Origin: Candidatus Shapirobacteria bacterium
Lineage (GTDB): Bacteria; Patescibacteriota; Microgenomatia; PFEM01; JAPLYW01
NCBI GenBank assembly: GCA_026395335.1
Contig: JAPLYW010000005.1
Coordinates: 1 to 32,331, forward strand
Direction: 5' to 3'
Length of the DNA: 32,331 nt
Shown: positions 1 through 28,558 of the stretch, piece by piece
Numbering within the stretch: the first letter of the stretch is position 1
How the letters are laid out: every line of letters starts with the position of its first letter
Program-made: the position numbers and the translations under genes
Notes under the pieces: generated by a model
What the model saw: the letters and a program-made list of their open reading frames with translations, nothing else
Database searches by the model: none
What the model was told of the DNA's origin: nothing

Positions 1-1616
1 GGCATACCGCCACCCATACCGCCCATTGGTGATTCTTTTTCTTTTTCAGGAATATCAGTAATCAAACATTCAGTTGTTAAAATCATCGTTGCTACAGAAA
101 CAGCATTTTGTAATGCCGTTCTGGTAACTTTGGCCGGGTCAATAATACCAGCTTTAATCATATCCAAATATTCACCGGTTAAAACATTAAAACCAAAACC
201 AGCCGGATTTTTCTTAACATTAGAAATGACAACATTCCCATCCTCACCGGCATTAGAAGCCAAAAGTTTCATCGGTGACTCCAAAGCTTTTTGAACAATC
301 TTAGCACCGGTCAACTCATCACCACTTAAATCTTTAAAATCAATCGCTTTAGCCGCAGTTATCAAAGCAACGCCGCCACCAGGGACAATCCCTTCTTCAA
401 TTGCGGCTTTAGTAGCCGCTACGGCATCTTTAACTCTTTCCTGTTTTTCTTTCATCTCTGTTTCGGTTGCCGCTCCAACTTCAATAACCGCTACGCCACC
501 AGCTAATTTAGCTAATCTTTCTTGAAGTTTCTCTTTATCAAATTCAGAAGTTGTTCGGTCTAATTCTGCTCTAATTTGCTTAATACGGCTTTCGATCTCT
601 TTTCTCTCACCTTTACCGCCAACAATTACGGTAGTATCTTTATCAGCCGTAACTCGATCAGCTTGGCCTAAATCTTCAATTGTTACATCTTCTAATTTGC
701 GGCCAATATCCTGAGAAATCACAGTTCCACCGGTTAAAACAGCAATATCCTGAAGCATTTCTTTTCTTCGATCACCAAAACCAGGAGCCTCAACTACTAA
801 AACATTAAAAGTGCCTCTTAACTTATTAACAACTAAAGTTGCTAAAGCCTCGCCATCAACTTCATCAGCAATAATAACCAAGTTCTTGGAAATCTTAACT
901 AATTTTTCCAAAAATGGCAGCAATTCCTGAATAGAGGAGATTTTTTTATCAGTCAATAAAAGATAAGCGTCTTCAATAGAAGCTTCCATAGTATCGGAAT
1001 TGGAAATAAAGTAAGCGGAAGAATAACCTTTATCAAATTCCATCCCTTCCTTATAATCAATCACTAAATCCATACCTTTACCTTCTTCAACAGTGATAAC
1101 TCCATTAGAACCAACTTTTTTCAAGGCTTCAGCGATTTTACTGCCAATTTCTTCATTTTGAGCTGAAATAGTCGCTACCTGAATAATCTTATCAGAGTTG
1201 TCTTTAATAACTTGGGATTGTTTTTTAATTGCGGCTAAAACCTGATTAGCTGCCTTTTCAATACCTTTGTTTAAAATCATTGGGTTAGCTCCAGCCGTAA
1301 TATTCTTAATCCCCTCATCAACAATGGCCTGAGTTAAAATTGTCGCTGTCGTTGTTCCATCCCCAGTCACGTCATTAGTTTTATCAGCAGCTTCTTTCAT
1401 TAATTGAGCCCCCATATTTTCAAAAGGATCTTGTAACTCAATTTCTTTGGCAACCGAAACACCATCATGAACAACAGTCGGCGCTCCCCATTTTTTGTCC
1501 AAAGCCACATTACGACCTTTTGGGCCTAAAGTTGTTCCTACTGCTTTAGCCACGGCATCAACACCTTTTTTTAATTTTTCTCTAGCTTCTGATGAATATT
1601 TAATTTGTTTCGCCAT
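1..1616 (-). CDS. groEL: Chaperonin GroEL (3' end runs off the window)
   Basis: Absent from the ORF track because there is no stop in the window. Manual translation from ATG at 1616 gives [37 protein letters not shown]...GDGTTT... and ends in a PMGGMGGGM tail at the window edge. Lies downstream of groES. Confidence 0.98.
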
Positions 1617-1630
1617 TTTGAGTCTCCGAA

Positions 1631-1662
1631 AAACAAGGTTCTGTCGTTTCGACAGGTCCTTA
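1631..1662 (-). repeat. Dispersed hairpin element, copy 1 (groES-groEL spacer)
   Basis: Minus strand reads TAAGGACCTGTCGAAACGACAGAACCTTGTTT, 31/32 identical to 23579-23610. Confidence 0.95.
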
Positions 1663-6312: not shown

Positions 6313-6351
6313 AAATTTTTTTTCTATTTTGATCCGCCAGTTAGCGGAGAG

Positions 6352-6383
6352 AAACAAGGTTCTATCGTTTCGATAGGTTCTTA
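6352..6383 (-). repeat. Dispersed hairpin element, copy 2
   Basis: Minus strand TAAGAACCTATCGAAACGATAGAACCTTGTTT. Its two differences from copy 3 are a compensatory G-C to A-T stem pair. It is followed by a TCCGCTAACTGGCGGA hairpin. Confidence 0.95.
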
Positions 6384-9823: not shown

Positions 9824-10896
9824 TTATTTTAGGAATTGAAACCAGTTGCGATGAAACGGCCGTGGCAATTATTGAAAATGGGAGAAAAATTTTATCTAAC
9901 ATCGTTGCTTCTTCAATTGAACTTCATCAAAAAACCGGAGGTATTATTCCGGAGATTGCTGCCAGAGAACAATTAAAATATATTGTCCCTGCGATTAAAG
10001 AAGCTTTAGAAAAAAGCAGACTAAAACCTAAAGATTTAGACGCTTTAGCTGTCACCAGCGGTCCGGGTCTTATCGGCAGTTTATTGATTGGCGTCGAAAC
10101 TGCTAAAACTTTAGCTTATCTTTGGAAAAAACCGATTGTACCGATTAATCATTTACAAGCCCACCTGTACGCGAATTTCATTCGCGAGCATCCAGTATCC
10201 AGTAGCCCGCTTTGCGGGATTCCTACAGAATGTCAGTGTCCAGTTTTTCCTGCTATTGGGTTAGTTGTTTCCGGCGGCCATACCGATTTAATTTTAATGA
10301 AAAATCATAGCCAGATAAAATGGCTGGGCGGAACCAGAGATGATGCCGCTGGTGAATGTTTTGATAAATGCGCTCGTTTATTAAATTTAGGTTATCCCGG
10401 CGGCCCGGCTATTGCCGCCACAGCGGCAAAGTACATAGTACATAAAACAGAGAACAAAGTTAAATTACCCAGACCAATGATAAACGACGATAATTTTGAT
10501 TTTTCTTTTTCCGGTTTAAAAACAGCCCTTTTAAGCAGGATAAAAGAATTAGAAAATAAAAAAGTAAAAATAAATACTTATGAAATTGCTTACGAAATTC
10601 AGGAAGCGGTTACTGATGTCTTAGTTAAAAAAGTTCTAAAGGCTGTTTCTCAAAACCAAGTTAACTCTTTATTATTAGCTGGTGGAGTTACGGCTAATCC
10701 CCGCTTAAAAGAAAAAATGAAAGAAGCTTTAGAAAAACAGCAAATAAAGATACCTCTTTTTATTCCTGAGCCAAAATTTTGCACTGATAATGCCACTTTT
10801 GTGGCCAGTTGTGCTTTTTTTAATTTTGAGCCAGTCCCTTGGCAAAAAATCCAAGCTGACTCTAGCCTCGAAATCGAAGAAGTGATAAAATTTTAA
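9820..10896 (+). CDS. tsaD: tRNA N6-adenosine threonylcarbamoyltransferase TsaD
   Basis: MIILGIETSCDETAVA, GPGLIGSL, HLQAH, VSGGHT, TRDDAAGECFDK, FSFSGLKT, CTDN. ATG at 9820 overlaps the VanW stop (ATGA). Confidence 0.97.
   Translation: MIILGIETSCDETAVAIIENGRKILSNIVASSIELHQKTGGIIPEIAAREQLKYIVPAIKEALEKSRLKPKDLDALAVTSGPGLIGSLLIGVETAKTLAYLWKKPIVPINHLQAHLYANFIREHPVSSSPLCGIPTECQCPVFPAIGLVVSGGHTDLILMKNHSQIKWLGGTRDDAAGECFDKCARLLNLGYPGGPAIAATAAKYIVHKTENKVKLPRPMINDDNFDFSFSGLKTALLSRIKELENKKVKINTYEIAYEIQEAVTDVLVKKVLKAVSQNQVNSLLLAGGVTANPRLKEKMKEALEKQQIKIPLFIPEPKFCTDNATFVASCAFFNFEPVPWQKIQADSSLEIEEVIKF
10170..10243. repeat. In-frame palindrome plus heptamer insertion in tsaD
   Basis: CGCGAAT-TTC-ATTCGCG hairpin, then CATCCAG TATCCAG, then CCCGC-TTT-GCGGG and ATTC-CTACA-GAAT, then TGTCCAG. 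Confidence 0.8.
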
Positions 10897-10902
10897 GACA
10901 AG

Positions 10903-12975
10903 ATGGAAAAAAATTACGAACCGCAAAAAACGGAAAATAAAATTTATCAATTTTGGGAAAAGGGTAATTATTTTCAACCAATTTTTGATAAAAAGAAAAA
11001 GTCTCAAAAACCTTTTGTGATTACTCTCCCCCCGCCCAATGTTACCGGCGAACTTCATTTAGGCCATGCTCTTTATTGTTTAGAAGATTTAATGATCCGC
11101 TATCATCGTATGTTGGGTGAGCCAACCTTATGGTTACCGGGCTTTGATCATGCTTCTATTGCTGTAGAATACCTAGTCAATAAACAATTAAAAAAAGAAG
11201 GAACTAATAAACAGTATATCGGCCGGGAAGAATTCTTAAAAAGAGCTAAAGATTTTGCTGATAAATCAAAAAGCCATATTAAAAATCAATTAATATCTTT
11301 AGGTTTTTCTCTAGATTGGACACACGAAGCCTATACCATGGATGAAAAACGATCCTTGGCAGTTAAAGAAGCTTTTAAAAGACTTTATGAAAAAGGTTTA
11401 ATTTATCAAGGTGAAAGGATTATTAATTGGTGCTCGAAATGCCAGACCGCTTTATCTGATTTAGAGAATGATTATCAGGAAGAAAAAGGAATTCTTTATT
11501 ATATAAAATACGGCTCCATAACCATTGCCACAACTAGGCCGGAAACAATGTTTGCTGATGTCGCTGTCGCAGTTAATCCTAAAGATAAACGTTATTCAAA
11601 ATTAATTGGCAAAAAAGTTTCCTTGCCATTAACTAATCGCAAAATTCCTATCATTTCCGATGAATCCGTTGATTTAAAATTCGGTACCGGAGCGTTAAAA
11701 ATCACTCCCGGCCACGATCCTTTGGATTTTGAAATCGGTCAAAAACATAAACTAGAAATACTAATCGTAATTAACACCAAGGGCCATTTAACTTCTTTAG
11801 CCGGAGATTATCAAAACTTAACTGTTAATGAAGCTAGAGAAAAAGTTGTTGCTGAATTAAAAAAACAGGGATTGTTAGAAAAAACTCAGGAATTTCAACA
11901 CGCAGTTGGCCATTGCCAAAGATGTGGAACAATTACTGAACCTTTAATATCTAAACAATGGTTTGTTAAAACTAAAACGTTAGCTAAACCAGCTATTGAA
12001 GCGATTAAAAAAGGCAATATTAAAATCATTCCCAAAAAATTTGAAAAAGTTTATTTAAATTGGATGGAAAACATTCGCGATTGGTGTATTTCCCGCCAAC
12101 TTTGGTGGGGACACCAAATTCCAATTGAAGATGAAACTGATGTTTTAGATACTTGGTTTTCTTCAGGACTTTGGCCTTTTGCCACTTTAGGCTGGCCTGA
12201 AAAGACCAAAGATTTAGAAAATTTTTACCCAACTACAGTCAGAGAAACTGCTTACGATATTTTATTCTTTTGGGTAGCCAGAGAAATTATGATGAGTCTA
12301 TTTTTAACCGGTAAAATCCCCTATGAGATCGTTTATCTCCATGGATTAGTTCGTGATAAACAAGGCCAAAAAATGAGCAAAACTAAAGGCAATGGTTTAG
12401 ACCCGTTGGAACTAACCCAAAAATATGGAACGGATGCCTTAAGAATGGCTTTAATTGTCGGAAATGCTCCGGGAAATGATTTTTCTCTAACTGAAGACAA
12501 AGTAAAAGCTTATCGTAATTTTGCCAATAAAATTTGGAATGCGAGCCGGTTTATTCTTTCATACGAACAGCAGAACATAGTGTCCCGCGAAGCGGGATCC
12601 CGCTCCGCGGGACAAAGAACAAAGAGCATAGGAAAACATAAAGACGACATTTGGATTTTGGAAGAAACAGAAAAAGTTATTAAAAAAGTCACTAGTTTTA
12701 TTAACCGTTATCGTTTTGATTTGGCAGCGGAAACTATATATCATTTTTTCTGGCACACTTTTTGTGACCAGTATTTGGAAATAAGTAAAAAGAGAAGAGA
12801 TGAAACCCAATTAACTTTAATACAGGTTTTAGAAACTTCTTTAAAATTACTTCACCCTTTTATGCCTTTTTTAACTGAAGAAATTTGGTGCCGAATGAAA
12901 AATATTTCAGTTGAGCATTCTCGAGACAAAGCGTCGGGACAAAAACCCCTTATTATCACCTCATGGCCAAAATGA
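10903..12975 (+). CDS. valS: Valine--tRNA ligase (compact form)
   Basis: PPPNVTGELHLGH, ATTRPET, GTGALKITPGHD, DWCISRQLWWGH, DVLDTWFSS, KMSKT, LLHPFMPFLTEEIW. Confidence 0.97.
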   Translation: MEKNYEPQKTENKIYQFWEKGNYFQPIFDKKKKSQKPFVITLPPPNVTGELHLGHALYCLEDLMIRYHRMLGEPTLWLPGFDHASIAVEYLVNKQLKKEGTNKQYIGREEFLKRAKDFADKSKSHIKNQLISLGFSLDWTHEAYTMDEKRSLAVKEAFKRLYEKGLIYQGERIINWCSKCQTALSDLENDYQEEKGILYYIKYGSITIATTRPETMFADVAVAVNPKDKRYSKLIGKKVSLPLTNRKIPIISDESVDLKFGTGALKITPGHDPLDFEIGQKHKLEILIVINTKGHLTSLAGDYQNLTVNEAREKVVAELKKQGLLEKTQEFQHAVGHCQRCGTITEPLISKQWFVKTKTLAKPAIEAIKKGNIKIIPKKFEKVYLNWMENIRDWCISRQLWWGHQIPIEDETDVLDTWFSSGLWPFATLGWPEKTKDLENFYPTTVRETAYDILFFWVAREIMMSLFLTGKIPYEIVYLHGLVRDKQGQKMSKTKGNGLDPLELTQKYGTDALRMALIVGNAPGNDFSLTEDKVKAYRNFANKIWNASRFILSYEQQNIVSREAGSRSAGQRTKSIGKHKDDIWILEETEKVIKKVTSFINRYRFDLAAETIYHFFWHTFCDQYLEISKKRRDETQLTLIQVLETSLKLLHPFMPFLTEEIWCRMKNISVEHSRDKASGQKPLIITSWPK
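12581..12614. repeat. 34-bp GC-rich near-perfect palindrome in frame in valS
   Basis: TGTCCCGCGAAGCGGGA|TCCCGCTCCGCGGGACA with one mismatch, flanked by GAACATA, GAACAAA and GAGCATA heptamers. Confidence 0.9.
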
Positions 12976-13619
12976 CATACGAGAATAAAAGAGTTCACTC
13001 CGAGAGTTCACTCCGAGGAGCAAAAGAACAGGAGAGTAAAAAGAGGAATCCTTGGATTTTAAACAAAACTCAAGCTATCCACCGAGTAATGAAACCTATG
13101 GCCGCCAGAATCGGACGCCGGCTAGGTCCTAGCGGCATAGTTTTAGTAACTTTATTAATTATTGGTTCTATTGTTTATCCAAAAGATGAAACCCAAAAAA
13201 TTAAACTCCAATTGATAAATAATCCTTACGATTTGGAAAGCCATTTAAAATTAGCAGAAAAATTTTTACAAAATCATCAATTTACTGAAACAGAAAAAAC
13301 TTTATTATTGACAAAACAAATAAATCACTATTCATTAGCAAACAATAAAGTTCTTGAGGAAAGAACAAATGTAAATTTAGAAAGAATATGGCAAGAAAAA
13401 AATTTATCCGATCCTCAAGATATTAAAAAGCTTATTTCTTCTTGGGAAAAAATTATAGAAGCTAAACCGGATTATCGCGATGGCTATCTTCAACTGGCAG
13501 TTCTTAATTTTAAGCTTTCACAAAAATAAAAAGCAAATTTTTATTTGAAGAAGGCCTTGGAAATTGATCCTAATTTTATAACCAGCCAAAAATTAAAAGA
13601 AATTTTTACTCAGTCTTAG
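12963..13619 (+). pseudogene. TM + TPR protein with an in-frame TAA at 13527-13529
   Basis: The frame continues past the stop: PDYRDGYLQLAVLNFKLSQK*KANFYLKKALEIDPNFITSQKLKEIFTQS*. This is one TPR split by the stop. True start may be ATG at 13089. Confidence 0.7.
12991..13016. repeat. 13-bp tandem duplication
   Basis: GAGTTCACTCCGA x2, followed by GGAG. Confidence 0.85.
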
Positions 13620-14301
13620 TTTCTTCTGGTTTCTTTTCTCCTGCTTTAGGTGTTTCTTCACCAGCTTTTTCCGTTTCACCACCTTCAGCTGTTACCTCTT
13701 CTGCAACTGGAGCAATAACAACTTCTTCTTTAGCTGGCGGTTCTATTTTTGCCAAAACCTCTTTACCATCAGTTAAAATTTTAATTCCTTCGGCAATTTT
13801 AACTGTTTCTACTAAAATAGTATCGCCAATTGTTTTTAGCCCGGAAATATCAACTTCAATTTTTTCTGGTAAATCAGCTGGTAGGGCTTCAACTTCAACC
13901 TCTGACAAAGGTTGAATTAAAATACCAATTTTATCTTTAACTGCTAAAGATTCGCCAATTAATTCCACCGGGACTTTTGTCGTTACTTTTTCTTTTAAAT
14001 CAACTTGGTAAAAATCAGCATGTAATGGCTCGCCACTGGTAGGATGAAATTGAACAGAATGAATTAAAACTGGACGAACATTTTCTTCATCAGTAACTTT
14101 TAATTCCAGTAAACCTGTTTCACCAACTTCTTTTAAGACAGGTAAAAAAGATTTGGCTGAAAGTTGGACTGCTAAAGATTTAATTTTTTTACCATAAATA
14201 TTAGCCGGTAAAATCCCCTTTCTGCGAAGAAATTTTACTTCCCGACCGACAGTCTTTCTTTTTTCAACGCTTAATTTGGTTTTTTCTCTTTTAACAGTCA
14301 T
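13606..14301 (-). CDS. rplY: 50S ribosomal protein bL25 (Ctc type)
   Basis: LRRKGILPANIYG, VQFHP...HADFYQV, EVEALPADLPEKIEVDIS, acidic tail. Confidence 0.96.
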   Translation of the reverse strand: MTVKREKTKLSVEKRKTVGREVKFLRRKGILPANIYGKKIKSLAVQLSAKSFLPVLKEVGETGLLELKVTDEENVRPVLIHSVQFHPTSGEPLHADFYQVDLKEKVTTKVPVELIGESLAVKDKIGILIQPLSEVEVEALPADLPEKIEVDISGLKTIGDTILVETVKIAEGIKILTDGKEVLAKIEPPAKEEVVIAPVAEEVTAEGGETEKAGEETPKAGEKKPEETKTE

Positions 14302-14313
14302 AAAACTATCTTA

Positions 14314-16773
14314 TCATTTTATAAGACTAAATTCAAAGACTAAATCTTGATCAAAACTAGGACTGAGAAAAAGTCCTTCGGTTGTTTGAGCAAACTTTAA
14401 TTTATCGACCAAAGCTGTAACACCTATTGACGGTTGAAGCCAAAAGTTAAAACTCTCATCTTGAATCCCAGGTTGTTTTTGTAGAAAAAATAAATAATGA
14501 CCAATCTCTGATTCCCATTTTTCATCTAACTGATAAACAATCTCTACTGAACGTTTTTCTTGAATTGGAACCTCTATTAAAAATCCAAAAACCTGATAGT
14601 TATGATCTTGTTTTATCTCTCTATCGGTAATTTCTTCTACCTGCCCTGTTTGATTATTAGTAACTTTTAAGCTTATTAATTTACTATTTAATGGAGTATA
14701 AAGTCTAATATAGCTTTTATAACGACCAGCTGGAAAAGCTTCTGAAGGCGATGTATTTTGGTAATCAAGACGTAAAGTTTCTTTAATATCTCCATTTTCT
14801 TCTATTTTTATTTGATGAGAAAGGCTTCTTTTTAAAAAGTAATTGGCTTTATTAATTCCAACATTTGCTTCTATCACCATTAAATAGTCATTTAAACACT
14901 TCGTGTTTGTTACCTGGCACCTAACATTTTTTATCTCTCCTCCCCATGCCAACTCTTGAGCGATCAGTGTCGCTTTATCATCATAAAACCATAAAATTAA
15001 ATCTTTAGCCTTTAAAGAAGGTAATAAATTTTTAGCTAAGCCAAACCAAATTTTCTGATCACCCTGTTTAATTTTTTCAAACAAAACACGAGCAACACTG
15101 CCCAAAAAATCTTGCTTTTGAGTTGAACCTGGGAAAAAATTAATCTCCGAATGGTATTCAGCTCTTTCAAAAAAATTGTCAGCATTAATTTTTTCTTGAT
15201 AATCAGGTAGTTCTATCTCGCCGATTGATTTTAAAATCCGCTGGGCTAAAAACAAATTGACGCCAATTACCCCATCAACTTTTCGACCGGTTTCCTTCTC
15301 CAAAAACCAAGCTGCTTTCAAAGCTGATGAAGGGAAATCAGGATCCCAGTTAGAATCACGAAAATACCAACCGGCTTCACCTAAATATTTTTTCAAATCT
15401 TCCGGCGGCTCAACATGACCTTTTAATTGTCCATCAGCGCTATAAACGTCTTTAATCTCAAAATCCACTAATTGGCCTTCATCAAGAGTTAAAAGACCAA
15501 AACTACCGATAAAACCACCGGTCGGCCGTAACTCACTATTATTTTGGAAAAGAATTAAATAAGTCTGTTTTTTCTCTAAACCAATTAATGAAGGCAAAAG
15601 TTCAATCCCCTTTCTGGCTTGAAGAATAAGATCTCTAGCTTCTTTTAATTGTTCTTTCTCCGGCCGATCACCTATTTGGCTTTCTGCTAAAGAAAGTTGG
15701 CTAAAACTTTGGTCCAGATTAATTTTTATCTCTTTAATTGAGCTATCAATAGACAACGGTTCTTTTTGAAAAATAGATTTTAGGAGACCTTCTAATTGCA
15801 ATGTCGCCTGTAAAAAATTATCAAGACCTTCCGAAACCGTCTCTCCTAAATTTAACAATTTGTTTAATTGTGTTGTTTTCTCCTGACTGAAAAAGTTTAA
15901 AAGTGGGGTTATTTGCCCTAACTGCTCTTCACTTTTCTGAAAAGAATTTAAGGCCGTATCAGCCTGATGGCTGGCTTTTAATAAATTCCCTTGAGTTAAA
16001 GAATTTTTCGCTTGCTTTAAATTTTGTACGCCTAAAAGGCTCCAAAAACCTAAAGAAAGAAAAGGGTAAAAAATTGCTAAAATTAGTAAAGTAATTAAAA
16101 AAGAAATGACGGCTTTTTTGGAAAAAACTTTTGGCAAAATGGGCTTTTTTATTTCTAATTTTTCTTTTTTCGGTTGGTCTTTTAATTGAAAGGATTTCTC
16201 TAATTCCTCTAACCCTTGACTTAGATCAACTTTAGTTTGCCAACCAAGATTTTTATTATTTTCTAAAAGAAAAAATGATTTACCCTTAGTTCCATTACCA
16301 AACATAGCTTTTAACAAACCATAAATAAAATCAGAAATAAAAATCGCTTTTTCTTTTATCGTCCCATCTAAATGTAAGAATTTTTGGTACTCCTTTAAAA
16401 CCATCCCCGGACCATAAACATAAGCAAAACGAATGATTCTAACATTAAGTTTTTTTTCAAAAGATAACTGAATAATTTTATCTTCTAAAGAATCTTTTTC
16501 TGATAATGATGGCAAGGCAAAAAGAAGTTTCGCTTGTGGAGAAACAGAGTCAAGAACTTCTTTGATTAAAACCCAATTTTGATGAAAACAAAAAACATAA
16601 TTGCCTTTTTTAAAAACTTCTAAATCTAAATTTCTAGTAAAAGAAATTGATTGGCAATTGTACAAAAGCAAAGCTTTGTTTAAAAATTCATTGACAAAAT
16701 TTTCTCCGCCAACAATTAAAACTAAAGGTTTTTCTTGACTCTCGCCAACTCTGTGAAAAATTTTATCATTCAT
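14314..16773 (-). CDS. DUF4012-domain membrane protein with a degenerate N-terminal epimerase-like region
   Basis: YLILFQNNSELRPTGGFIGS, RDSNWDPDFP, VDGVI, NVGINKANY; TM segment near residues 220-245. Confidence 0.85.
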   Translation of the reverse strand: MNDKIFHRVGESQEKPLVLIVGGENFVNEFLNKALLLYNCQSISFTRNLDLEVFKKGNYVFCFHQNWVLIKEVLDSVSPQAKLLFALPSLSEKDSLEDKIIQLSFEKKLNVRIIRFAYVYGPGMVLKEYQKFLHLDGTIKEKAIFISDFIYGLLKAMFGNGTKGKSFFLLENNKNLGWQTKVDLSQGLEELEKSFQLKDQPKKEKLEIKKPILPKVFSKKAVISFLITLLILAIFYPFLSLGFWSLLGVQNLKQAKNSLTQGNLLKASHQADTALNSFQKSEEQLGQITPLLNFFSQEKTTQLNKLLNLGETVSEGLDNFLQATLQLEGLLKSIFQKEPLSIDSSIKEIKINLDQSFSQLSLAESQIGDRPEKEQLKEARDLILQARKGIELLPSLIGLEKKQTYLILFQNNSELRPTGGFIGSFGLLTLDEGQLVDFEIKDVYSADGQLKGHVEPPEDLKKYLGEAGWYFRDSNWDPDFPSSALKAAWFLEKETGRKVDGVIGVNLFLAQRILKSIGEIELPDYQEKINADNFFERAEYHSEINFFPGSTQKQDFLGSVARVLFEKIKQGDQKIWFGLAKNLLPSLKAKDLILWFYDDKATLIAQELAWGGEIKNVRCQVTNTKCLNDYLMVIEANVGINKANYFLKRSLSHQIKIEENGDIKETLRLDYQNTSPSEAFPAGRYKSYIRLYTPLNSKLISLKVTNNQTGQVEEITDREIKQDHNYQVFGFLIEVPIQEKRSVEIVYQLDEKWESEIGHYLFFLQKQPGIQDESFNFWLQPSIGVTALVDKLKFAQTTEGLFLSPSFDQDLVFEFSLIK

Positions 16774-18597: not shown

Positions 18598-19878
18598 TTA
18601 ACTTAATTTCGACCAAGACAAACCAAGAACAATAGTTAAAAGAAGCTGATTTTGTTGAAGAGTTAACCAATAATGGTCATTCAGCCCTAAAAACAACACC
18701 GTTGTTAACCCCAATATTAAGACTAGATAAGAAGACAATAAACGACTAAACAATCTACGATAAGTTAAGATTAAAAACCAAACAAAAATAATCAATCCGG
18801 TAAATCCAGTTTCTGCAGCTATAAGAAAATAAATATTATGAACCGGTTGTAGCCAATAAGTAAAACCGACTAAAGACCAATAATCAGGAAGACGAGTAAT
18901 AAAATTATTTAAGCCAACTCCCGACAAAGGAAAATTTCTAATCATTAGTAAAGCTGACTCCATTAATTGTTTTCTTTGGGAAAAAGCTTCATTAGTAGAA
19001 AAATAGGGGACAACAACAATTAATAAACAGCTAAAAAGAAAAAATAAAGAAGAAATAAAAAAAAGCTTTTTCTTTTGAAAATGATTTTTATGAATTATAA
19101 AATAAAAAACGGCCATTAAACTCAAAAACCAAACCGAGCGAGAGAAACTAACAATTATGGTTAATCCCCCTAAAATAAAAGCCAAGTATTTAATCGACTT
19201 GATTACTTTATTTTTTCCCACCGACCAATTACTTAATAAAATTAAACTTACTAGAAGAAAACCAGCCAAAGCATTAGGATGAGCAAAAATCCCATAAGGC
19301 CGCAAAACTAACCGACCATTAAGAATAGTTTTAGCAATTCCCGGAGTAGCTAAATCAAAAGTTCGTTCTCCCAACCACCAGAAAATACCGTTTAAAGAAC
19401 CTTGTTTTAAAAACTGGCCTAAAGCAATTAAAGAAGAATAGACTACTGCCCCGGCAAGTGGATACTGGATATAAGGAAACCTTGTTTCTCGAAGCTCGAA
19501 ATTAGATACTGGATACTGATTCTTAGCGATATAAAATCCAAGCAGGGTAAACTCAACGATTTTGGCAAATTTATAAAAGGCTACCCCTTGGTTTTGAGCT
19601 AAAAAAGCATTGACCAAAAGAAAAACAAAAATTGTAAAAACCCACCAGCAGCTCCTTAATATCTTACGTATTACATATCTCTTATCACGTATCCCCCAAA
19701 CCCACAAGAATAAAATTAAAAAAACTAAAATGTCGGTTAAATAAAGAGTAGGAGATAAATAATCAACTTTTAAACCTAAAACATAACTCCAATTTGGCCA
19801 AAAATGTTTTCCTAGCTGAAAAGGTAAAAGCAGTATTAATAACCAAAAAAAATTCTGATGAAGCTTTTTTTTAAACAT
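18598..19878 (-). CDS. O-antigen ligase/polymerase (Wzy_C) family membrane protein
   Basis: RPYGIFAHPNALAGFL, SFSRS, PLSGVGLNNF, PVHNIYFLIAAETG. Confidence 0.88.
   Translation of the reverse strand: MFKKKLHQNFFWLLILLLPFQLGKHFWPNWSYVLGLKVDYLSPTLYLTDILVFLILFLWVWGIRDKRYVIRKILRSCWWVFTIFVFLLVNAFLAQNQGVAFYKFAKIVEFTLLGFYIAKNQYPVSNFELRETRFPYIQYPLAGAVVYSSLIALGQFLKQGSLNGIFWWLGERTFDLATPGIAKTILNGRLVLRPYGIFAHPNALAGFLLVSLILLSNWSVGKNKVIKSIKYLAFILGGLTIIVSFSRSVWFLSLMAVFYFIIHKNHFQKKKLFFISSLFFLFSCLLIVVVPYFSTNEAFSQRKQLMESALLMIRNFPLSGVGLNNFITRLPDYWSLVGFTYWLQPVHNIYFLIAAETGFTGLIIFVWFLILTYRRLFSRLLSSYLVLILGLTTVLFLGLNDHYWLTLQQNQLLLTIVLGLSWSKLS
19469..19502 (+). repeat. Dispersed element, copy 4: 'empty' form lacking the central hairpin, antisense within the CDS
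   Basis: ATATAAGGA|AACCTTGTTTCTCGAAGCTCGAAAT aligns to copy 1 ATATAAGGA[CCTGTCGAAACGACAG]AACCTTGTTTTTCGGAGACTCAAAAT. Flanked by GATACTG heptamers. Confidence 0.75.
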
Positions 19879-23578: not shown

Positions 23579-23610
23579 TAAGAACCTGTCGAAACGACAG
23601 AACCTTGTTT
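23579..23610 (+). repeat. Dispersed hairpin element, copy 3 (dnaN leader)
   Basis: TAAGAACCTGTCGAAACGACAGAACCTTGTTT, ending 16 nt before the dnaN ATG. Confidence 0.95.
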
Positions 23611-23626
23611 TTTTGTAAACAAAAAA

Positions 23627-24751
23627 ATGAAAGTCTATATTCTTCAAGAAAATCTTACTAAAGGCTTAACTGCTGTTAATCGTTTTATTACTACTAAAAC
23701 ACAATTACCGATTTTAAATAATATTTTAATTAAAACTGATCAGGGTAGATTAAAACTTTCCGCTACTAATTTAGAAACTGGTATTAATTTTTGGTTGGGG
23801 GCTAAAATAGAAAAAGAAGGTGAGGTTTGTATCCCCGCAAAAACATTAGCGGAATATATTACTTCTTTACCGGCTGATAAAATTGATTTAGAAGTGGAAA
23901 ATAATCTTTTAAAAATTCATTCCGGCTCTTATCAGGCTCAATTTTTAACTTCACCCTCGGTTGAATTTCCTGAAATTCCCACTTTAGAAAAAAAACCGGA
24001 AATTAATTTAAGTTTTAAAGATTTATCTTTAGCCATTAACCAAGTAGCTTTTGCCGCTACTCAAGATGAAGGCCGCCCGGTTTTAACTGGAGTTTTATTA
24101 AAGGTTAAAAAGCAAAGTTTGTTTTTAGTGGCAACCGATGGTTATCGTTTAAGTGTTAAAGAAATTAAGGATTTGAAAGAAATTGAAAAAATAAAAGAAA
24201 CAGAAGAACTTTTAATTCCTGCTAGAGCCTTAATAGAGGTAGGAAAAGTTATGAGTAGTAATAATTCTGAAAATAATTTAGGATTAACAATTACTCCTAA
24301 AAATAATCAAATTATTTTTTCTAATTCGGAGGTGGAAATTATTTCAAGATTAATTGAAGGAAAATTTCCTGATTTTGAGAAGATTATTCCGGAGAAAGGT
24401 AAAACAAAGATTGTTATAGAAACAGAGAGTCTGTTACAAGCAGTGCGTACGACCTCAATTTTCGCCCGAGAAGCCGCCAATATTATAAAAATGGAGGTTA
24501 GTGACTCTAAGATAGAAATTAGCGCCAATAATCCCCAAATGGGTGAGAACAAAATTAAACTAGAAGCTAAAACTGAAGGTGAAGGCGGGAAAATTGCTTT
24601 TAATTCCCGTTATTTAATTGATTTTCTTAATTCTACGAAATCAGATTTAATTAATTTACAAATTAATGACGCTTTAAGCCCTGGAGTTTTTTCTCCAGTA
24701 GATGATCCTTCTTATCTTCATGTGATCATGCCGATAAGGTTGCAGGAATAA
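23627..24751 (+). CDS. dnaN: DNA polymerase III beta clamp
   Basis: LPILNNILI, SATNLE, RPVLTGV, VATDGYRLS, SRLIEGKFPDF, IAFNSRYL, VIMPIR. Confidence 0.99.
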   Translation: MKVYILQENLTKGLTAVNRFITTKTQLPILNNILIKTDQGRLKLSATNLETGINFWLGAKIEKEGEVCIPAKTLAEYITSLPADKIDLEVENNLLKIHSGSYQAQFLTSPSVEFPEIPTLEKKPEINLSFKDLSLAINQVAFAATQDEGRPVLTGVLLKVKKQSLFLVATDGYRLSVKEIKDLKEIEKIKETEELLIPARALIEVGKVMSSNNSENNLGLTITPKNNQIIFSNSEVEIISRLIEGKFPDFEKIIPEKGKTKIVIETESLLQAVRTTSIFAREAANIIKMEVSDSKIEISANNPQMGENKIKLEAKTEGEGGKIAFNSRYLIDFLNSTKSDLINLQINDALSPGVFSPVDDPSYLHVIMPIRLQE

Positions 24752-25789: not shown

Positions 25790-28558
25790 TTATGGTGCTG
25801 TAGTTTTGGTATTACATTGAGCCGAACTATTACAACTACGAGATGGTAAATTAAGAGGAATATTCTTAGGTTCCATTTTAAGGATACCATATGGTTGAAA
25901 TTCATAATGTAAGTGGGAAGCATAAGGGCCGCCACTGCTATCCACATAACCAATAATTTGTCCTTTTATAACTGAACCTGAAACACGATCTCTTTCTAAA
26001 AGGTGATAATATCTAGTGTGGAAAATTTTACCTTCGCAAGTTCCGGCAATATCAATATAATACCCTGCACCAAAAGTTTGATGCCCGATTGTAGCTGTAC
26101 CTTTATGAGTAGCGTAAACTGGTGTTCCTCTATTAGCACCAATATCAATAGCTTCTTCATGATGAGGACCATGGGAAGTTGCTCCTTCTGGACCTTGAGC
26201 AATTTTTCCACTAGTTGGCCAACCAGAAGGGCAATCCATTGGTGGGCTACCAATAATAACAACAGTACTAGTTGTTCCTGGGAAACTTCCATCAATACCT
26301 TCAACTGCAAGGGTAGCATTAATAGTGTTAGTAATGGCAGTATTTTCAAACCTGGAGTCAACTTGGGTAGTATAATCTACTTGCCATGTTGTTCCAGAAC
26401 TAATTTCTCTACCCTTTTCGTTTAAATCTTTGGAAAAAGAATATGTTGGGAGGGTTAATTGTTTCCCATCAGTGCTAAAAGAAAAATTATCTTTAATATT
26501 AATAATTCTTAGGCTATAACCATCATTAGCCTTAATTGTTACTATGTATTTAATTTCTGGATTATTACTAAGTTCACTATTGTCTATTTTTGTACGATCA
26601 GCAGTTTTTTCTAATTTAAAATAAGGTGACTCATAAGCAGAAACATTAGTGACAGTGGTTTCAGTTACTTTTGCAGGCAAGATAAAAGAGCCGCTGACTA
26701 CTAAAACAATAAACAAAGTCAAAACAGCTAGAGTACTTAAAACAATAATTAAAAAAAGAGCCACTGGAAAAATAACTGGAGCGGCAAGAGCCGTAAAAAA
26801 TACTCCAATTCCACCTCCAATAGCGCCTAAAGTTATTGGCGCCATAACAAAACTGGCTAAACCCAGACCACCGAAAACAAGGGGGATAATTCCGAATAAA
26901 TTAAAAGGGTTAGGGATAAAAACTAAAACAGCAATGCCAATACCAATAGCCATTAAGCCTTTTTCCGGATCATTAATAATTTGTCGAATAAAACCAATAA
27001 TTTTTCCTCCAACCTTTTTTAATAATTCAAAAACAATAGAAGCTGCGGCAATGACAACTCCGGGTACTCCTCCGGCGGCAGTTCCAGCCACAGTAGCGCC
27101 TATTTCAACGCCTAATCTAGTTGCTAACCAAGTAGCGGCTTTTTTAACCCCAGCCTTAACAGCTTTACCAGCCGCCGTTTTAGCTAGCCAGTGAACTATT
27201 GGCTGGCCAACTTTTTGTGAGAAAAATTGTCTTATTGGTGTTAAGAAGGAAGTATATTGACCTTTAGTAACAAATTTACTAAATCTTTCATAGGTATTAA
27301 TAATAAATTTAAAATGGTTAAGACCATTTTTAATAGAGCCGGCATAGCCGCCTTTTGACCAATCAGTATTATTTGGGAATGGTATTCTATCATAAGAAAT
27401 TCTCTGTCGGCCTGTAATCTTGTCGAATTTATAAAAGCGTTTTAAAAAAGCGGCTGCTGGTTTGTCTTTATAATGGACATTACCGTTTTTATCTTTATAT
27501 TCAATTTTTTGTTGTTCTTGGAAACGGGCAAATTTATCATTTAGTTTTACTAAAACCGGATGTTTTTCGGAAACTCCTAACTCTCTAAGACGTCGAATTG
27601 TGAATTCAAAATCTTCGGCAAAGATTCCTTGAGTAATCATGGCCTGCCATTCCGGAGAAGCATCGTCAGCCGCTAGTTTTAGAATTTTAGCCGGTAAAGT
27701 ATAAATTCCCCTTTCAATAAAGGCTGCAGTAGCTTTGGGATATAAAACTGTATAAAGTGGTAAAAAAGCTACGCCGTCATTTTGAGCTAATTGATCTAAA
27801 ATGGCTTGAGGGAGAGTTGCGTCTAAAATCGGCGAAGTGATTTTAGTAACTTCTTGAAAGGGTTTGATAATAGCTGGAGTAGCGGCAATTTCCTGAGCTT
27901 CAGTAATAAGGTTTTGTGTTTTCCCCCTAGTAGCTTCTTCTTTAATCTTTTTAAGCTCATCATTAACAATTTTTTCGGCTTCTTTAAGAACTTGATTTTT
28001 AGTAACTTTTTTAAGCTCATCATTAACAATTTTTTCGGCTTCTTTAAGAACTTGATTTTTAATTTCTTCGGTAAAAAAGTCTGCTTGCGCTACTGGAGGA
28101 AGAGAGGCAATAGTTTTATCAGTAGCATTTTTAGCCATTTCTTCCACCAAAGGTTTGGGAATTTGTATATTAGCCTTAGTAATAATTTTTCTAAATTCCT
28201 CATTAAAATTTCGGTAGCGTTTCTGATTTTCTTTAGAAGAAACTTTTTTCTGTAATTCTAATGTTTCTTTTTCTTTGTCTTTCTCATAAATTTCTACTAA
28301 TTCAGAAAGGTTAGGAGGAATATCTGGGGCTTCCTGGTTTTTTGATTGCGAAGAAATCTCCACGATTTTAACCGTCATTAAAGGTAAAAATTCCGGATCA
28401 TTAGGGTCAATATTGACGCCTAAAATTTGCGCTAGCTGGATAATTTTATCCAAAGCATCTTTTCTACTTATATCCTGATGGGGCCAATTTTTTTCTTGAA
28501 GATCATAAATAATGGGTAGAAATTCTTCGAGATTAACGAGTTCTTTTTCTTGGATCAT
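25790..28558 (-). CDS. Large membrane protein with a C-terminal M23 peptidase domain
   Basis: GWPTSG, HEEAIDI (HxxxD), GTPVYATHKG, YYHL, GQIIGYV, HLHYE (HxH); central Ala/Gly-rich multi-TM block. Confidence 0.88.
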   Translation of the reverse strand: MIQEKELVNLEEFLPIIYDLQEKNWPHQDISRKDALDKIIQLAQILGVNIDPNDPEFLPLMTVKIVEISSQSKNQEAPDIPPNLSELVEIYEKDKEKETLELQKKVSSKENQKRYRNFNEEFRKIITKANIQIPKPLVEEMAKNATDKTIASLPPVAQADFFTEEIKNQVLKEAEKIVNDELKKVTKNQVLKEAEKIVNDELKKIKEEATRGKTQNLITEAQEIAATPAIIKPFQEVTKITSPILDATLPQAILDQLAQNDGVAFLPLYTVLYPKATAAFIERGIYTLPAKILKLAADDASPEWQAMITQGIFAEDFEFTIRRLRELGVSEKHPVLVKLNDKFARFQEQQKIEYKDKNGNVHYKDKPAAAFLKRFYKFDKITGRQRISYDRIPFPNNTDWSKGGYAGSIKNGLNHFKFIINTYERFSKFVTKGQYTSFLTPIRQFFSQKVGQPIVHWLAKTAAGKAVKAGVKKAATWLATRLGVEIGATVAGTAAGGVPGVVIAAASIVFELLKKVGGKIIGFIRQIINDPEKGLMAIGIGIAVLVFIPNPFNLFGIIPLVFGGLGLASFVMAPITLGAIGGGIGVFFTALAAPVIFPVALFLIIVLSTLAVLTLFIVLVVSGSFILPAKVTETTVTNVSAYESPYFKLEKTADRTKIDNSELSNNPEIKYIVTIKANDGYSLRIINIKDNFSFSTDGKQLTLPTYSFSKDLNEKGREISSGTTWQVDYTTQVDSRFENTAITNTINATLAVEGIDGSFPGTTSTVVIIGSPPMDCPSGWPTSGKIAQGPEGATSHGPHHEEAIDIGANRGTPVYATHKGTATIGHQTFGAGYYIDIAGTCEGKIFHTRYYHLLERDRVSGSVIKGQIIGYVDSSGGPYASHLHYEFQPYGILKMEPKNIPLNLPSRSCNSSAQCNTKTTAP
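27948..28061. repeat. 60-bp-period tandem duplication
   Basis: 54 identical bp at 27948-28001 and 28008-28061, encoding KNQVLKEAEKIVNDELKK twice. Confidence 0.95.

What the first reader, a model, noticed from the sequence alone, without database searches (positions are those of the whole stretch)
19461..19518. 'Empty' copy shows the element is modular, with exchangeable hairpin cassettes
Seen: copy 4 (19469-19502) is ATATAAGGA|AACCTTGTTTCTC-GAAGC-TCGAAAT. Copy 1 is ATATAAGGA[CCTGTCGAAACGACAG]AACCTTGTTTTTC-GGAGAC-TCAAAAT. Copy 2 ends AACCTTGTTTCTC[TCCGCTAACTGGCGGA]TCAAAAT. One scaffold therefore has two variable slots, each able to hold a different 16-nt hairpin. Copy 4 is antisense and in frame in the O-antigen ligase gene (NFELRETRFPY), nested within GATACTG heptamers. 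Inference: tiny hairpins insert into or excise from a scaffold that itself lands in heptamer arrays, a nested micro-mobile system with no mobiliser in this window.
Basis: partly seen in the sequence, partly recalled or inferred. Interest (0 to 1): 0.82.

Follow-up and report, generated by a model that had tools for sequence, protein, structure and literature searches.

The report
Tiny double-hairpin mobile element in gene
A 30-base piece of a small repeated two-hairpin DNA element has been inserted, in frame and backwards, into a cell-surface sugar ligase gene of a very small bacterial genome, one of about 44 copies that behave like miniature mobile DNA.

Summary
Window 19471-19502 (+) is a true hairpin-less copy of a repeat with the layout AAGAAC-[hairpin H1]-AACCTTGTTTYTC-[filler or GC hairpin H2]-TCRAAAT. 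No comparable match occurred in 0 of 300 shuffles.

It is a 30-nt in-frame insertion. The peptide FELRETRFPY is absent from 29 of 29 ligase orthologs.

The genome (457 kb) holds about 44 copies, in all four H1/H2 combinations. Four more copies sit in frame inside other genes (PBP1A, an FAD oxidoreductase, ComF, an Obg-like GTPase), in both orientations. All four are absent from orthologs.

Intergenic copies are lineage-specific: the groES-groEL spacer has one in 0 of 29 relatives. They sit after (A)AT, often splitting a start codon or an ATGA overlap. The element's own ends (AAG...AAAT) then rebuild the stop and the start.

The element is therefore mobile, or was. It is closest in kind to REP/RPE elements and mitochondrial GC clusters.

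The "heptamer target" idea is not supported. The "mobile hairpin cassette" idea has partial support for H2 only (5 of 11 identical palindromes lie outside any scaffold). H1 is never solo.

The mobiliser is unknown. Three RAYT-like genes exist on other contigs, but they are flanked by different palindromes.

The parts
19471..19502 (+). Copy 4: a hairpin-less (H1-, H2-) element copy. The 30 inserted bases can be written as 19473-19502 (AAGG...GAAAT, placed after ...GGATAT) or as codons 19471-19500.
   Evidence: 0 of 300 shuffles; absent in 29 of 29 orthologs.
18598..19878 (-). Host gene: Wzy_C / O-antigen-ligase-family membrane protein (426 aa). It carries the insertion as residues FELRETRFPY.
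19461..19518 (+). GATACTG heptamers around copy 4. Before the insertion this was a 28-nt array of 4 units (GATACTG GATATTA GATACTG GATACTG), the same length as the orthologous coding segment.
   Evidence: This is pre-existing coding sequence, not a target-site duplication: the repeat spacing of 44 nt equals 30 nt of insert plus 14 nt.
1615..1661 (-). Copy 1 (H1+, filler GGAGAC) between groES and groEL. Its last two bases are the AT of the groEL start codon.
   Evidence: The element is absent from this spacer in 29 of 29 relatives.
6326..6382 (-). Copy 2 (H1+ with a compensatory A-T pair, H2+). The TAA at 6383-6381 that stops the upstream solute-binding-protein gene overlaps the element's first two bases.
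23580..23628 (+). Copy 3 (H1+, U/A-rich second hairpin) between dnaA and dnaN. It ends in the AT of the dnaN start codon.
19396..19407 (+). AGAACCTTGTTT inside the ligase gene. This is not an element copy; it is the antisense of the conserved KQGS codons.
10191..10238 (+). A separate 48-nt in-frame insertion in tsaD. It holds two CAGTATC-type heptamers and the GC hairpin CCCGCTTTGCGGG, and is bounded by the 6-nt direct repeat TCCAGT.
   Evidence: absent in the 9 closest orthologs. One contig of run X12 skips 10190->10239.
12583..12612 (+). Two tandem H2-like GC hairpins (TCCCGCGAAGCGGGA, TCCCGCTCCGCGGGA) inside a class-I tRNA synthetase gene.
   Evidence: Many strain-level joints lie in 12115-12856.

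Best explanation
Copy 4 is a genuine, hairpin-less member of a family of very small (about 30-70 nt) non-autonomous mobile DNA elements in a 457-kb genome that looks like Patescibacteria/CPR.

Anatomy (shown):
- The unit is AAGAAC-[CT..AG hairpin H1, 11-21 nt, optional]-AACCTTGTTTYTC-[5-7 nt filler or 15-16 nt GC hairpin H2]-TCRAAAT.
- As a single strand it folds into two adjacent hairpins. The first is P1 (UAAG/CUUG) closing H1 across an AAC/AAC internal loop. The second sits in slot 2.

Behaviour (shown):
- The unit has been inserted at new sites after (A)AT.
- Between genes it often splits a start codon (AT^G) or an ATGA stop/start overlap.
- Because it begins AAG and ends AAAT, it rebuilds a TAA stop for the upstream gene and an ATG for the downstream gene. 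This explains why copies abut start codons in the gene's orientation.
- Inside genes only copies whose length is a multiple of three survive, in either orientation. The antisense strand is open in all three frames.
- Copy 4 is such an event: 30 nt, adding FELRETRFPY to a loop of the ligase.

Inferred:
- Hairpin-less forms arise mostly by slippage deletion between the 7-nt direct repeat AGAACCT that brackets H1.
- Movement goes through a single-stranded hairpin intermediate and needs a trans-acting enzyme. A Y1/HUH (RAYT-like) transposase is the leading but unproven candidate.
- Intergenic copies are tolerated or co-opted as leaders; they are not regulatory sites by origin.
For: Copy 4 is homologous to the family, not a chance match.
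- 0 of 300 shuffles give a comparable match.
- It matches the slot-2 variants at C26:13468 and C18:5410 with one indel.

It is an insertion.
- 29 of 29 ligase orthologs lack the 10 residues.
- The inserted DNA is present without any difference in an RNA-library contig spanning 19447-19807 and in DNA contigs of another run. It is therefore not an assembly artefact of one sample.

There are four further in-frame insertions of the same element in this genome.
- PBP1A: 19 aa, antisense, absent in 23 of 23 aligned homologs.
- FAD oxidoreductase: 12 aa, antisense, absent in 20 of 20.
- ComF: about 12 aa, sense, absent in 22 of 23.
- Obg-like GTPase: 27 residues where all 18 others have 7-14, sense.
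-.

Intergenic copies are gains.
- groES-groEL spacer: element in 0 of 29 relatives.
- dnaK, pnp, nusA and rplM leaders: 0 of 5 relatives each.
- Deleting AAG...AAAT restores an ATG and a spacer of ortholog-like length at groEL, pnp and nusA.
- At rplM it restores the ATGA overlap seen in G002.

Other features.
- Left flank is NAT in 28 of 35 copies. Tandem head-to-tail arrays are common.
- Distribution is patchy. Exact 12-mer counts are G000 35, G016 23, G022 17, G002 10, and most of 41 relatives 0-2.
- The 15-mer occurs in 6 of 300 other genomes sampled over the phylum, at 1-2 copies each.
- Subfamilies share identical H1: 11 copies of CTGTCGAAACGACAG and 10 of CTGCCTTCGGCAG.
- Folds support the two-hairpin shape. 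Copies 1 and 3 have z = -2.6 and -3.9.
- There are 12 distinct H1 sequences in 18 full units here and 15 in 17 units from other genomes. Most form 4-9 bp stems.
Against: No mobiliser is linked to the element.
- The three RAYT-like genes are each flanked by their own palindrome, present at only 1-3 loci. None is flanked by the scaffold.
- PF01797 was not found in the element-rich genomes G016, G022 and G002, which are 91-93% complete.

No presence/absence polymorphism of any scaffold copy was seen in the four runs laid. These are contigs only, and contigs break at the repeat.

Some copies look old.
- G009 and G016, from different families, share an orthologous copy with near-identical H1.
- The scaffold sequence recurs almost unchanged in scattered MAGs carrying many different CPR labels.
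- This is more conservation than selfish repeats usually show, and it hints at a functional or machinery constraint.

28 of 38 intergenic copies directly precede a same-strand gene start. A regulatory role would also predict this.

The insertion-site rule rests on ends that are ambiguous by 2-4 nt.

Copy 4's own mini-hairpins are not more stable than shuffles (z = -0.84).
Confidence: 0.72

Rival explanations
1. The scaffold is first of all a cis-acting RNA element: a 5' leader or intercistronic signal for stability, processing or translation start of highly expressed genes. Copies in genes are rare by-products.
For: - 28 of 38 intergenic copies sit directly before a same-strand gene start.
- The genes served include groEL, dnaK, dnaJ, dnaN, fusA, nusA, pnp and ribosomal proteins.
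- The hairpin is kept while its sequence changes.
- An orthologous copy is shared by G009 and G016.
- At fusA the element makes up the whole leader behind a TATAAT-like box. Relatives without it look leaderless.
Against: - It is absent at the same genes in the closest relatives: groEL 0 of 29; dnaK, pnp, nusA and rplM 0 of 5 each. These use short spacers, some with GGAGG-like motifs.
- Five in-frame coding insertions exist, three of them antisense.
- There is no Rfam match at gathering thresholds.
- The 15-mer occurs in only 6 of 300 other genomes of the phylum.
- The proposed U/A closing pair of slot 2 shows no significant covariation (C-G 5, C-A 7, T-A 6, T-G 0; Fisher p = 0.11).
- Position next to ATG is explained by the insertion site alone.
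Confidence: 0.15
2. One reading: the 9-17 nt palindromes are themselves mobile cassettes that enter and leave two slots of the scaffold.
For: - All four H1/H2 combinations exist.
- The 14-mer H2 palindrome is identical at 11 loci. Of these, 5 lie outside scaffolds, including inside the PBP1A and GTPase genes.
- H2-like TCC...GGA hairpins occur solo in genes: tsaD 10191-10238 and the tRNA synthetase gene 12583-12612.
- GC-rich hairpins number 170, against 25-53 in shuffles.
- H1 is bracketed by a 7-nt direct repeat that could be read as a target duplication.
- At fusA, G000 is filled where G002 has a hairpin-less form.
Against: - H1 is never found outside a scaffold (23 of 23).
- H2 replaces the filler rather than adding to it. 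There is no 'filler plus H2' form.
- Deletion between direct repeats flanking a palindrome is an established route to the empty form (recalled general knowledge).
- The G002 fusA form is not the exact excision product.
- No enzyme is known that moves 9-16 nt.
- At least one solo H2 (C4:15253) is followed by a T-run and may simply be a terminator.
Confidence: 0.2
3. Copy 4 is a chance resemblance or ordinary ancestral coding sequence of the ligase.
For: The neighbouring 12-mer at 19396-19407 is such a coincidence: it is the antisense of the conserved KQGS codons.
Against: - 0 of 300 shuffles give a comparable match.
- 29 of 29 orthologs lack the segment.
- The insert's limits coincide with the element's own ends.
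Confidence: 0.01

Closest known systems
Rickettsia palindromic elements (RPE)
   Same: Both are repeated palindromic elements inserted in frame into unrelated housekeeping genes as well as between genes, adding a peptide without breaking the protein. I read passages of the review PMC10969869: about 150 bp, ten families, 44 integrations in R. conorii genes.
   Different: The element here is 30-70 nt rather than about 150. It has optional hairpins and is unrelated in sequence and host. It also rebuilds stop and start codons at gene junctions.
REP / REPIN elements with RAYT transposases
   Same: Both are short, hairpin-forming, high-copy elements, mostly between genes. The genome encodes three Y1/HUH proteins whose best NCBIfam match is REP-associated tyrosine transposase. 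Mobilisation in trans is the proposed route (passages of PMC3116915).
   Different: The RAYT-like genes here are flanked by other palindromes, not by this element. Copies form direct tandem arrays, not inverted doublets. Element-rich relatives lack a PF01797 match. Copies also occur inside genes.
Mobile GC clusters of yeast mitochondria and double-hairpin elements of fungal mitochondria
   Same: Both are tiny GC-rich hairpin units in an AT-rich compact genome. Both show short putative target duplications, single elements and tandem arrays, merger and shuffling of units, and an unknown mobiliser (passages of PMC4478555). Paquin 2000 and Weiller 1989 I saw only as reference entries there. In-frame var1 insertions are recalled, not read.
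   Different: Those are organellar and these are bacterial. The sequences and target (AG there, NAT here) differ. Here the scaffold flanks are AT-rich and conserved, and only the hairpins are GC-rich.
IS200/IS605-derived miniature elements (single-strand 'peel and paste')
   Same: Both lack terminal inverted repeats, have a hairpin near each end, and insert next to a short fixed sequence without a clear duplication. Y1 transposase genes are present in the genome. The family features are recalled.
   Different: The left hairpin varies freely in sequence and can be missing. No full-length parent element with these ends was found. Orientation is not uniform with respect to the likely replication direction: copy 4 is opposite to copies 1 and 2 on the same side of dnaA.
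MIRU (mycobacterial interspersed repetitive units) and cyanobacterial small dispersed repeats (SDR)
   Same: MIRUs sit at gene junctions in operons with ends overlapping stop and start codons. SDRs are 21-27 nt mobile repeats that nest in one another. Both are recalled; SDR is only named in PMC3116915.
   Different: MIRUs are tandem minisatellite-like units carrying small ORFs. SDRs are cyanobacterial and lack this scaffold. I did not read either source.

Membership tests
REP/REPIN-RAYT system | A RAYT (Y1/HUH) gene is present in the genome. | tested here: met
   Three PF01797 matches over Pfam's cut-off (45.1, 39.6 and 35.9 bits against 23). They carry HUH-like NHFH and YIHxN motifs. They fall below NCBIfam's RAYT cut-off (33-51 bits against 80).
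REP/REPIN-RAYT system | The RAYT gene is flanked by copies of the same dispersed repeat. | tested here: not met
   The flanks hold AAGGCCWGGCCTT (3 loci), CACATCGGATGTG (3 loci) and TTAAGGTGSCACCTTAA (1 locus). None has the scaffold motifs.
REP/REPIN-RAYT system | Repeats are organised as inverted doublets (REPINs) and are extragenic. | tested here: not met
   Clusters are head-to-tail direct arrays (C17, C18, C30, C2, C26). At least 5 copies lie inside genes.
Rickettsia palindromic elements | In-frame insertion into unrelated protein-coding genes. | tested here: met
   Five genes are affected, and each insert is absent from orthologs.
Rickettsia palindromic elements | About 100-150 bp and belonging to the RPE sequence families of Rickettsia. 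| tested here: not met
   Units are 30-70 nt. The host is a 457-kb free-standing MAG whose relatives are 0.5-1.8 Mb.
Classical MITE | Terminal inverted repeats. | tested here: not met
   The ends AAGAACC... and ...TCRAAAT are not reverse complements of each other (read directly).
Classical MITE | Target-site duplication of fixed length. | tested here: inconclusive
   The ends can be read as a 2-4 nt AT/AAAT duplication or as insertion 3' of NAT without duplication.
IS200/IS605-type miniature element | Subterminal hairpins, no TIR, and insertion 3' of a fixed tetra- or pentanucleotide. | tested here: inconclusive
   Two hairpins are present and the left flank is NAT in 28 of 35 copies. However, H1 and H2 are optional and variable, and no cleavage data exist.
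Curated RNA family (Rfam) | A match at the family's gathering score. | tested here: not met
   0 matches in the whole window against 4227 families.

The most novel reading that the evidence does not exclude
This is a previously undescribed class of micro-transposon in ultra-small (CPR-like) bacteria.
- The minimal unit is a roughly 30-nt double hairpin, among the smallest mobile DNA known.
- It moves as single-stranded DNA through RAYT-like Y1 enzymes.
- It inserts inside start codons and ATGA overlaps while rebuilding both the stop and the start, so it can spread through a 91%-coding genome at little cost.
- It seeds new peptide loops in essential proteins.
- Its GC palindrome (H2) is a second, nested mobile unit.
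Probability: 0.25. Interest if true: 0.8.

Novelty: new variant of a known kind. Interest (0 to 1): 0.62.

Why it matters
Genomes this small and this densely coding are thought to have little room for selfish DNA. Here about 44 copies of a 30-70 nt element persist. They do so by entering gene junctions in a way that restores the stop and start codons, and by entering genes in frame.

This gives a concrete route by which new leader sequences and new peptide loops arise in reduced genomes. Affected proteins include a cell-wall synthase, a surface-polymer ligase and a GTPase.

It also offers a bacterial counterpart to the long-unexplained mobile GC clusters of mitochondria.

On the practical side, the repeat breaks metagenome assemblies. 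It also inflates ORFs, because several start codons were mis-called through it.

If the RAYT-like enzymes move it, the minimal substrate would be unusually small and easy to test.

Tried and rejected
**Pairing with 16S rRNA.** ACCUUGUU is complementary to the universal AACAAGGU near the 3' end of 16S, as seen in G003's 16S. I dropped this. An 8-mer match somewhere in 1.5 kb is not unlikely, and that rRNA stretch lies in the decoding centre (recalled). G000 itself has no 16S assembled.

**Sigma-70 promoter reading of TTGTTT...CAAAAT.** Rejected because the spacing varies from 10 to 20 nt between copies (read).

**U/A closing helix around slot 2.** The counts do not reach significance.

**Heptamers as target or duplication.** Rejected. 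The 11-nt repeat either side of copy 4 is the periodicity of a pre-existing 4-unit array (44 = 30 + 14). No other site has it. CAGTATC is not enriched genome-wide (41 observed, about 53 expected).

**Read laying.** Four runs were laid, all as contigs. No joint or indel was listed at copy 4. One contig of X12 ended at 19416, and contigs of X7 broke at 19479-19508. Small indels listed at 1615-1649 sit at depths that show cross-mapping from other copies. No conclusion on polymorphism of scaffold copies can be drawn, and no statement on expression.

**Genome-contig scan.** My pattern had a variable gap and was too loose. About 20 of them are true full elements and the rest are chance matches. Taxon breadth from that call is therefore only anecdotal, and the MAG labels are the depositors'.

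**Viral contigs.** 118 loci hold the 15-mer, but 0 have either flanking module.

**Other candidate mobilisers in G000.** GIY-YIG (PF01541) and the TnpB zinc ribbon (PF07282) were not found. The one RVT_1 hit is a DGR reverse transcriptase with its own TR/VR pair.

**Literature.**
- A search for the motif strings found 833 papers holding at least one of three short strings. The 20 listed were all unrelated.
- 'Patescibacteria + repeat + intergenic + hairpin' gave 2 papers, both on TIGR-Tas.
- 'Candidate Phyla Radiation + palindromic + repeat elements + insertion' listed 12, none on this subject.
- I therefore found no description of this element in those searches. Subscription journals and supplements were not searchable.

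Full report
**What is at the coordinates**

It is flanked by GATACTG at 19461-19467, 19505-19511 and 19512-19518.

It lies antisense in ORF 18598-19878(-). That ORF is a 426-aa protein of the Wzy_C/O-antigen-ligase family (PF04932, 52.8 bits). On the gene's strand it reads NFELRETRFPY.

The three other copies in the window are real.
- A 26-nt pattern covering the first hairpin and the core matches 3 times against 0 expected.
- One copy carries a compensatory G-C to A-T change.
- They lie between groES and groEL (1615-1661, -), between a solute-binding-protein gene and an unnamed gene (6326-6382, -), and between dnaA and dnaN (23580-23628, +).

**Is copy 4 more than chance?**

Yes.
- The window is a whole contig of a 457,599-nt genome: 30 contigs, 33.9% G+C, 93.6% complete.
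- A scan of that genome shows the layout (A)TAAGAAC-[hairpin]-AACCTTGTTTYTC-[GAAGAC-like filler or GC hairpin]-TCRAAAT at dozens of sites.
- Copy 4 matches the hairpin-less consensus over 31 nt with no substitution and three indels. It matches the 26-nt core with one deletion.
- None of 300 dinucleotide-preserving shuffles of the window gives such a match.
- Its slot-2 variant (CTCGAAGCTCGAAAT) is one base from those at C26:13468 and C18:5410.
- A second AGAACCTTGTTT at 19396-19407 is a coincidence. It is the antisense of AAA CAA GGT TCT, encoding KQGS in a motif conserved in all orthologs.

**Copy 4 is an insertion**

I fetched the ligase gene from 29 relatives: same family, order and class, with 35-60% identity. 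In all 29 the ten residues FELRETRFPY are missing, and the flanks align without further gaps.

The 30 inserted bases run from the element's first base to its last. They can be written as AAGG...CGAAAT placed after ...GGATAT.

The heptamers are not a target duplication. Removing the 30 nt leaves a 28-nt array of four heptamers of the same length as the orthologous coding segment. The 11-nt repeat around the insert is that array's own periodicity.

The inserted form stands unchanged in contigs of another DNA run and in a contig of an RNA library (19447-19807). It is therefore not an artefact of one assembly. Contigs cannot show transcription.

**The same element entered four other genes of this genome**

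- A PBP1A-type gene (C19:13690-16110, transglycosylase plus transpeptidase) carries a full copy with H1, antisense. It adds 19 residues inside the conserved DYFD motif and is absent from 23 of 23 aligned homologs.
- An FAD-dependent oxidoreductase (C7:2185-3534) carries a 36-nt copy, antisense. It is absent from all 20 other rows.
- A ComF-type gene (C2:14024-14773) carries a copy in sense orientation. It is absent in 22 of 23 rows; one row has six unrelated residues there.
- These three rest.
- An Obg-like GTPase (C7:10862-11792) has 27 residues where all 18 other rows have 7-14. These are encoded by a sense copy with H1 plus a separate GC palindrome.

In total there are three antisense and two sense insertions. 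The antisense strand of the element has no stop in any frame, and the sense strand has one (TAA) in one frame (read from the sequence).

**Intergenic copies are gains too, and the site explains their position**

The groES-groEL spacer holds the element only in this genome.
- The 29 relatives have short spacers. The closest, at 91% GroEL identity, has TAG-12 nt-ATG.
- Taking out AAGG...AAAAT leaves TAA-11 nt-ATG.

The same holds at pnp and nusA (0 of 5 relatives each). At dnaK it holds too (0 of 5), where a degenerate second copy lies upstream.

At rplM, removal restores an ATGA stop/start overlap like that of G002. With the element in place, the upstream gene stops at the element's TAA and rplM starts at the element's AT plus G.

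So the element enters after (A)AT. The left flank is NAT in 28 of 35 copies and NGT in 6. Its ends rebuild both signals. This accounts for three things without invoking a function:
- 28 of 38 intergenic copies abut a same-strand start.
- Some TAA stops are shared with the element (copy 2, dnaK-dnaJ).
- Head-to-tail arrays form, because each copy ends in a new AAAT.

**Modularity**

Among 44 curated copies, the four states are H1+H2- 24, H1-H2- 10, H1+H2+ 7 and H1-H2+ 3. The 44 come from 50 matches to the 15-mer core within two mismatches, less six that I judged false.

H1:
- It always begins CT and ends AG.
- It is bracketed by the direct repeat AGAACCT.
- It varies widely: 12 sequences in 18 full units here and 15 in 17 units from other genomes. 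Most have 4-9 bp stems.
- It never occurs outside a scaffold (23 of 23).
- Hairpin-less forms are what slippage between the two AGAACCT repeats would leave. This is inference.
- At fusA the orthologous leader is filled in G000, hairpin-less but divergent in G002, triplicated in G016, and absent in three others.

H2 is different.
- The palindrome CCGCCAGCTGGCGG is identical at 11 loci. Six are in slot 2 and five are elsewhere, two of those inside genes.
- Related TCC...GGA hairpins sit solo in tsaD and in a tRNA synthetase gene of this window.
- GC-rich hairpins are 3-6 times more frequent than in shuffles: 170 against 25-53.
- The tsaD case is the one clear filled/empty polymorphism. A 48-nt segment (10191-10238) is absent from the nine closest orthologs and is skipped by a contig of run X12, between TCCAGT repeats.

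**Shape**

As single strands, copies 1-3 fold into a first hairpin and a second hairpin in slot 2. The first is UAAG(G)/(C)CUUG closing H1 across a small internal loop. The z-scores are -2.6, -1.8 and -3.9. Copy 4 gives two weak mini-hairpins (z = -0.84). Rfam has no match.

**Distribution**

- The exact 12-mer is frequent in a few genomes of the same order: 35 in G000, 23 in G016, 17 in G022, 10 in G002, and 6 each in G007 and G009. It is at 0-2 in most of the 41 relatives.
- The 15-mer occurs in 6 of 300 other genomes drawn evenly from the phylum, at 1-2 copies each.
- True full elements turned up in scattered MAGs that depositors label Parcubacteria, Wildermuthbacteria, Shapirobacteria, Saccharibacteria and others.
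- Viral contigs gave only chance matches.
- Some copies are old. G009 and G016 share one with near-identical H1 next to the ligase locus. G002 has one right before its ligase start.

**Mobiliser**

The genome encodes three Y1/HUH proteins of 224-230 aa.
- They pass Pfam's cut-off, and their best NCBIfam match is REP-associated tyrosine transposase.
- They fall below that model's cut-off.
- Each is flanked by its own palindrome, found at only 1-3 loci, and not by this element.
- No such gene was found in G016, G022 or G002.

The only reverse transcriptase belongs to a diversity-generating retroelement. GIY-YIG and TnpB-type domains were not found.

The enzyme therefore remains open. A hairpin-recognising single-strand transposase is the most natural guess, given the lack of terminal inverted repeats and the fixed short flank. 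It is only a guess.

**Comparison with known systems**

The behaviour is that of Rickettsia palindromic elements (in-frame insertions; passages of PMC10969869) and of REP/REPIN elements (passages of PMC3116915). It fails defining features of both, in size and in RAYT flanks and doublets.

The nearest likeness in style is the mobile GC clusters of yeast mitochondria: short units, tandem arrays, merger and shuffling, and an unknown enzyme (passages of PMC4478555).

I found no description of this element in three literature searches.

**Verdict**

- The element is modular and has moved.
- The heptamer idea is wrong.
- The cassette idea is open for H2 and unlikely for H1.
- The mechanism of movement is unproven.

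Noticed in passing
window 10191-10238 (+), in tsaD (9787-10896): A 48-nt in-frame insertion holds two CAGTATC-type heptamers and the hairpin CCCGCTTTGCGGG. It is absent in the nine closest orthologs and skipped by a contig of run X12. The heptamer doublet CAGTATCCAGTA(T/G)C occurs only twice in the genome, here and beside copy 4. I have no explanation for that.
   Followed up: partly
window 12583-12612 (+), in a class-I tRNA synthetase gene (10903-12975): Two tandem GC hairpins (TCCCGCGAAGCGGGA, TCCCGCTCCGCGGGA) sit in coding sequence. Runs of related strains show many joints and a 30-nt insertion between 12115 and 12856, so this stretch looks hypervariable.
   Followed up: no
G000 contig C7:12564-15685: A diversity-generating retroelement. 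It has a reverse transcriptase (14606-15619), a target gene (13033-14295) with a variable repeat at 14154-14271, and a template repeat at 14361-14474 (118 nt, 74.6% identical). The cassette is bounded by an exact 25-nt repeat that also flanks the neighbouring RAYT-like gene.
   Followed up: partly
G000 contigs C15:5035-5721, C7:11849-12523, C17:2241-2933: There are three RAYT-like Y1 transposase genes in a 457-kb genome. Each is flanked by its own palindrome. PF01797 matches are common among the relatives (26 of 41 genomes, up to 13 in one).
   Followed up: partly
window 27948-28061: A perfect 60-nt tandem duplication (1.9 copies, 100% match) lies inside ORF 25790-28558(-).
   Followed up: no
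L189, L190, L191 (16S rRNA of G003, G016, G002): G003's 16S ends in the canonical anti-Shine-Dalgarno sequence. The 16S matches of G016 and G002 end in unrelated sequence, as if interrupted near the 3' end. G000 has no 16S assembled.
   Followed up: no
L321, L322, L324 (fusA upstream in G003, G001, G009): A TAAAAT/TACAAT box lies 6-9 nt before the fusA ATG, behind a conserved terminator-like hairpin. This suggests leaderless or near-leaderless fusA mRNAs in relatives that lack the element.
   Followed up: no
L048, L047 (groES-groEL spacer of G016 and G007): These spacers hold a different repeated motif (GTCGAAGG...GAGTCGAAGGATG). It may be another small junction element in those genomes.
   Followed up: no
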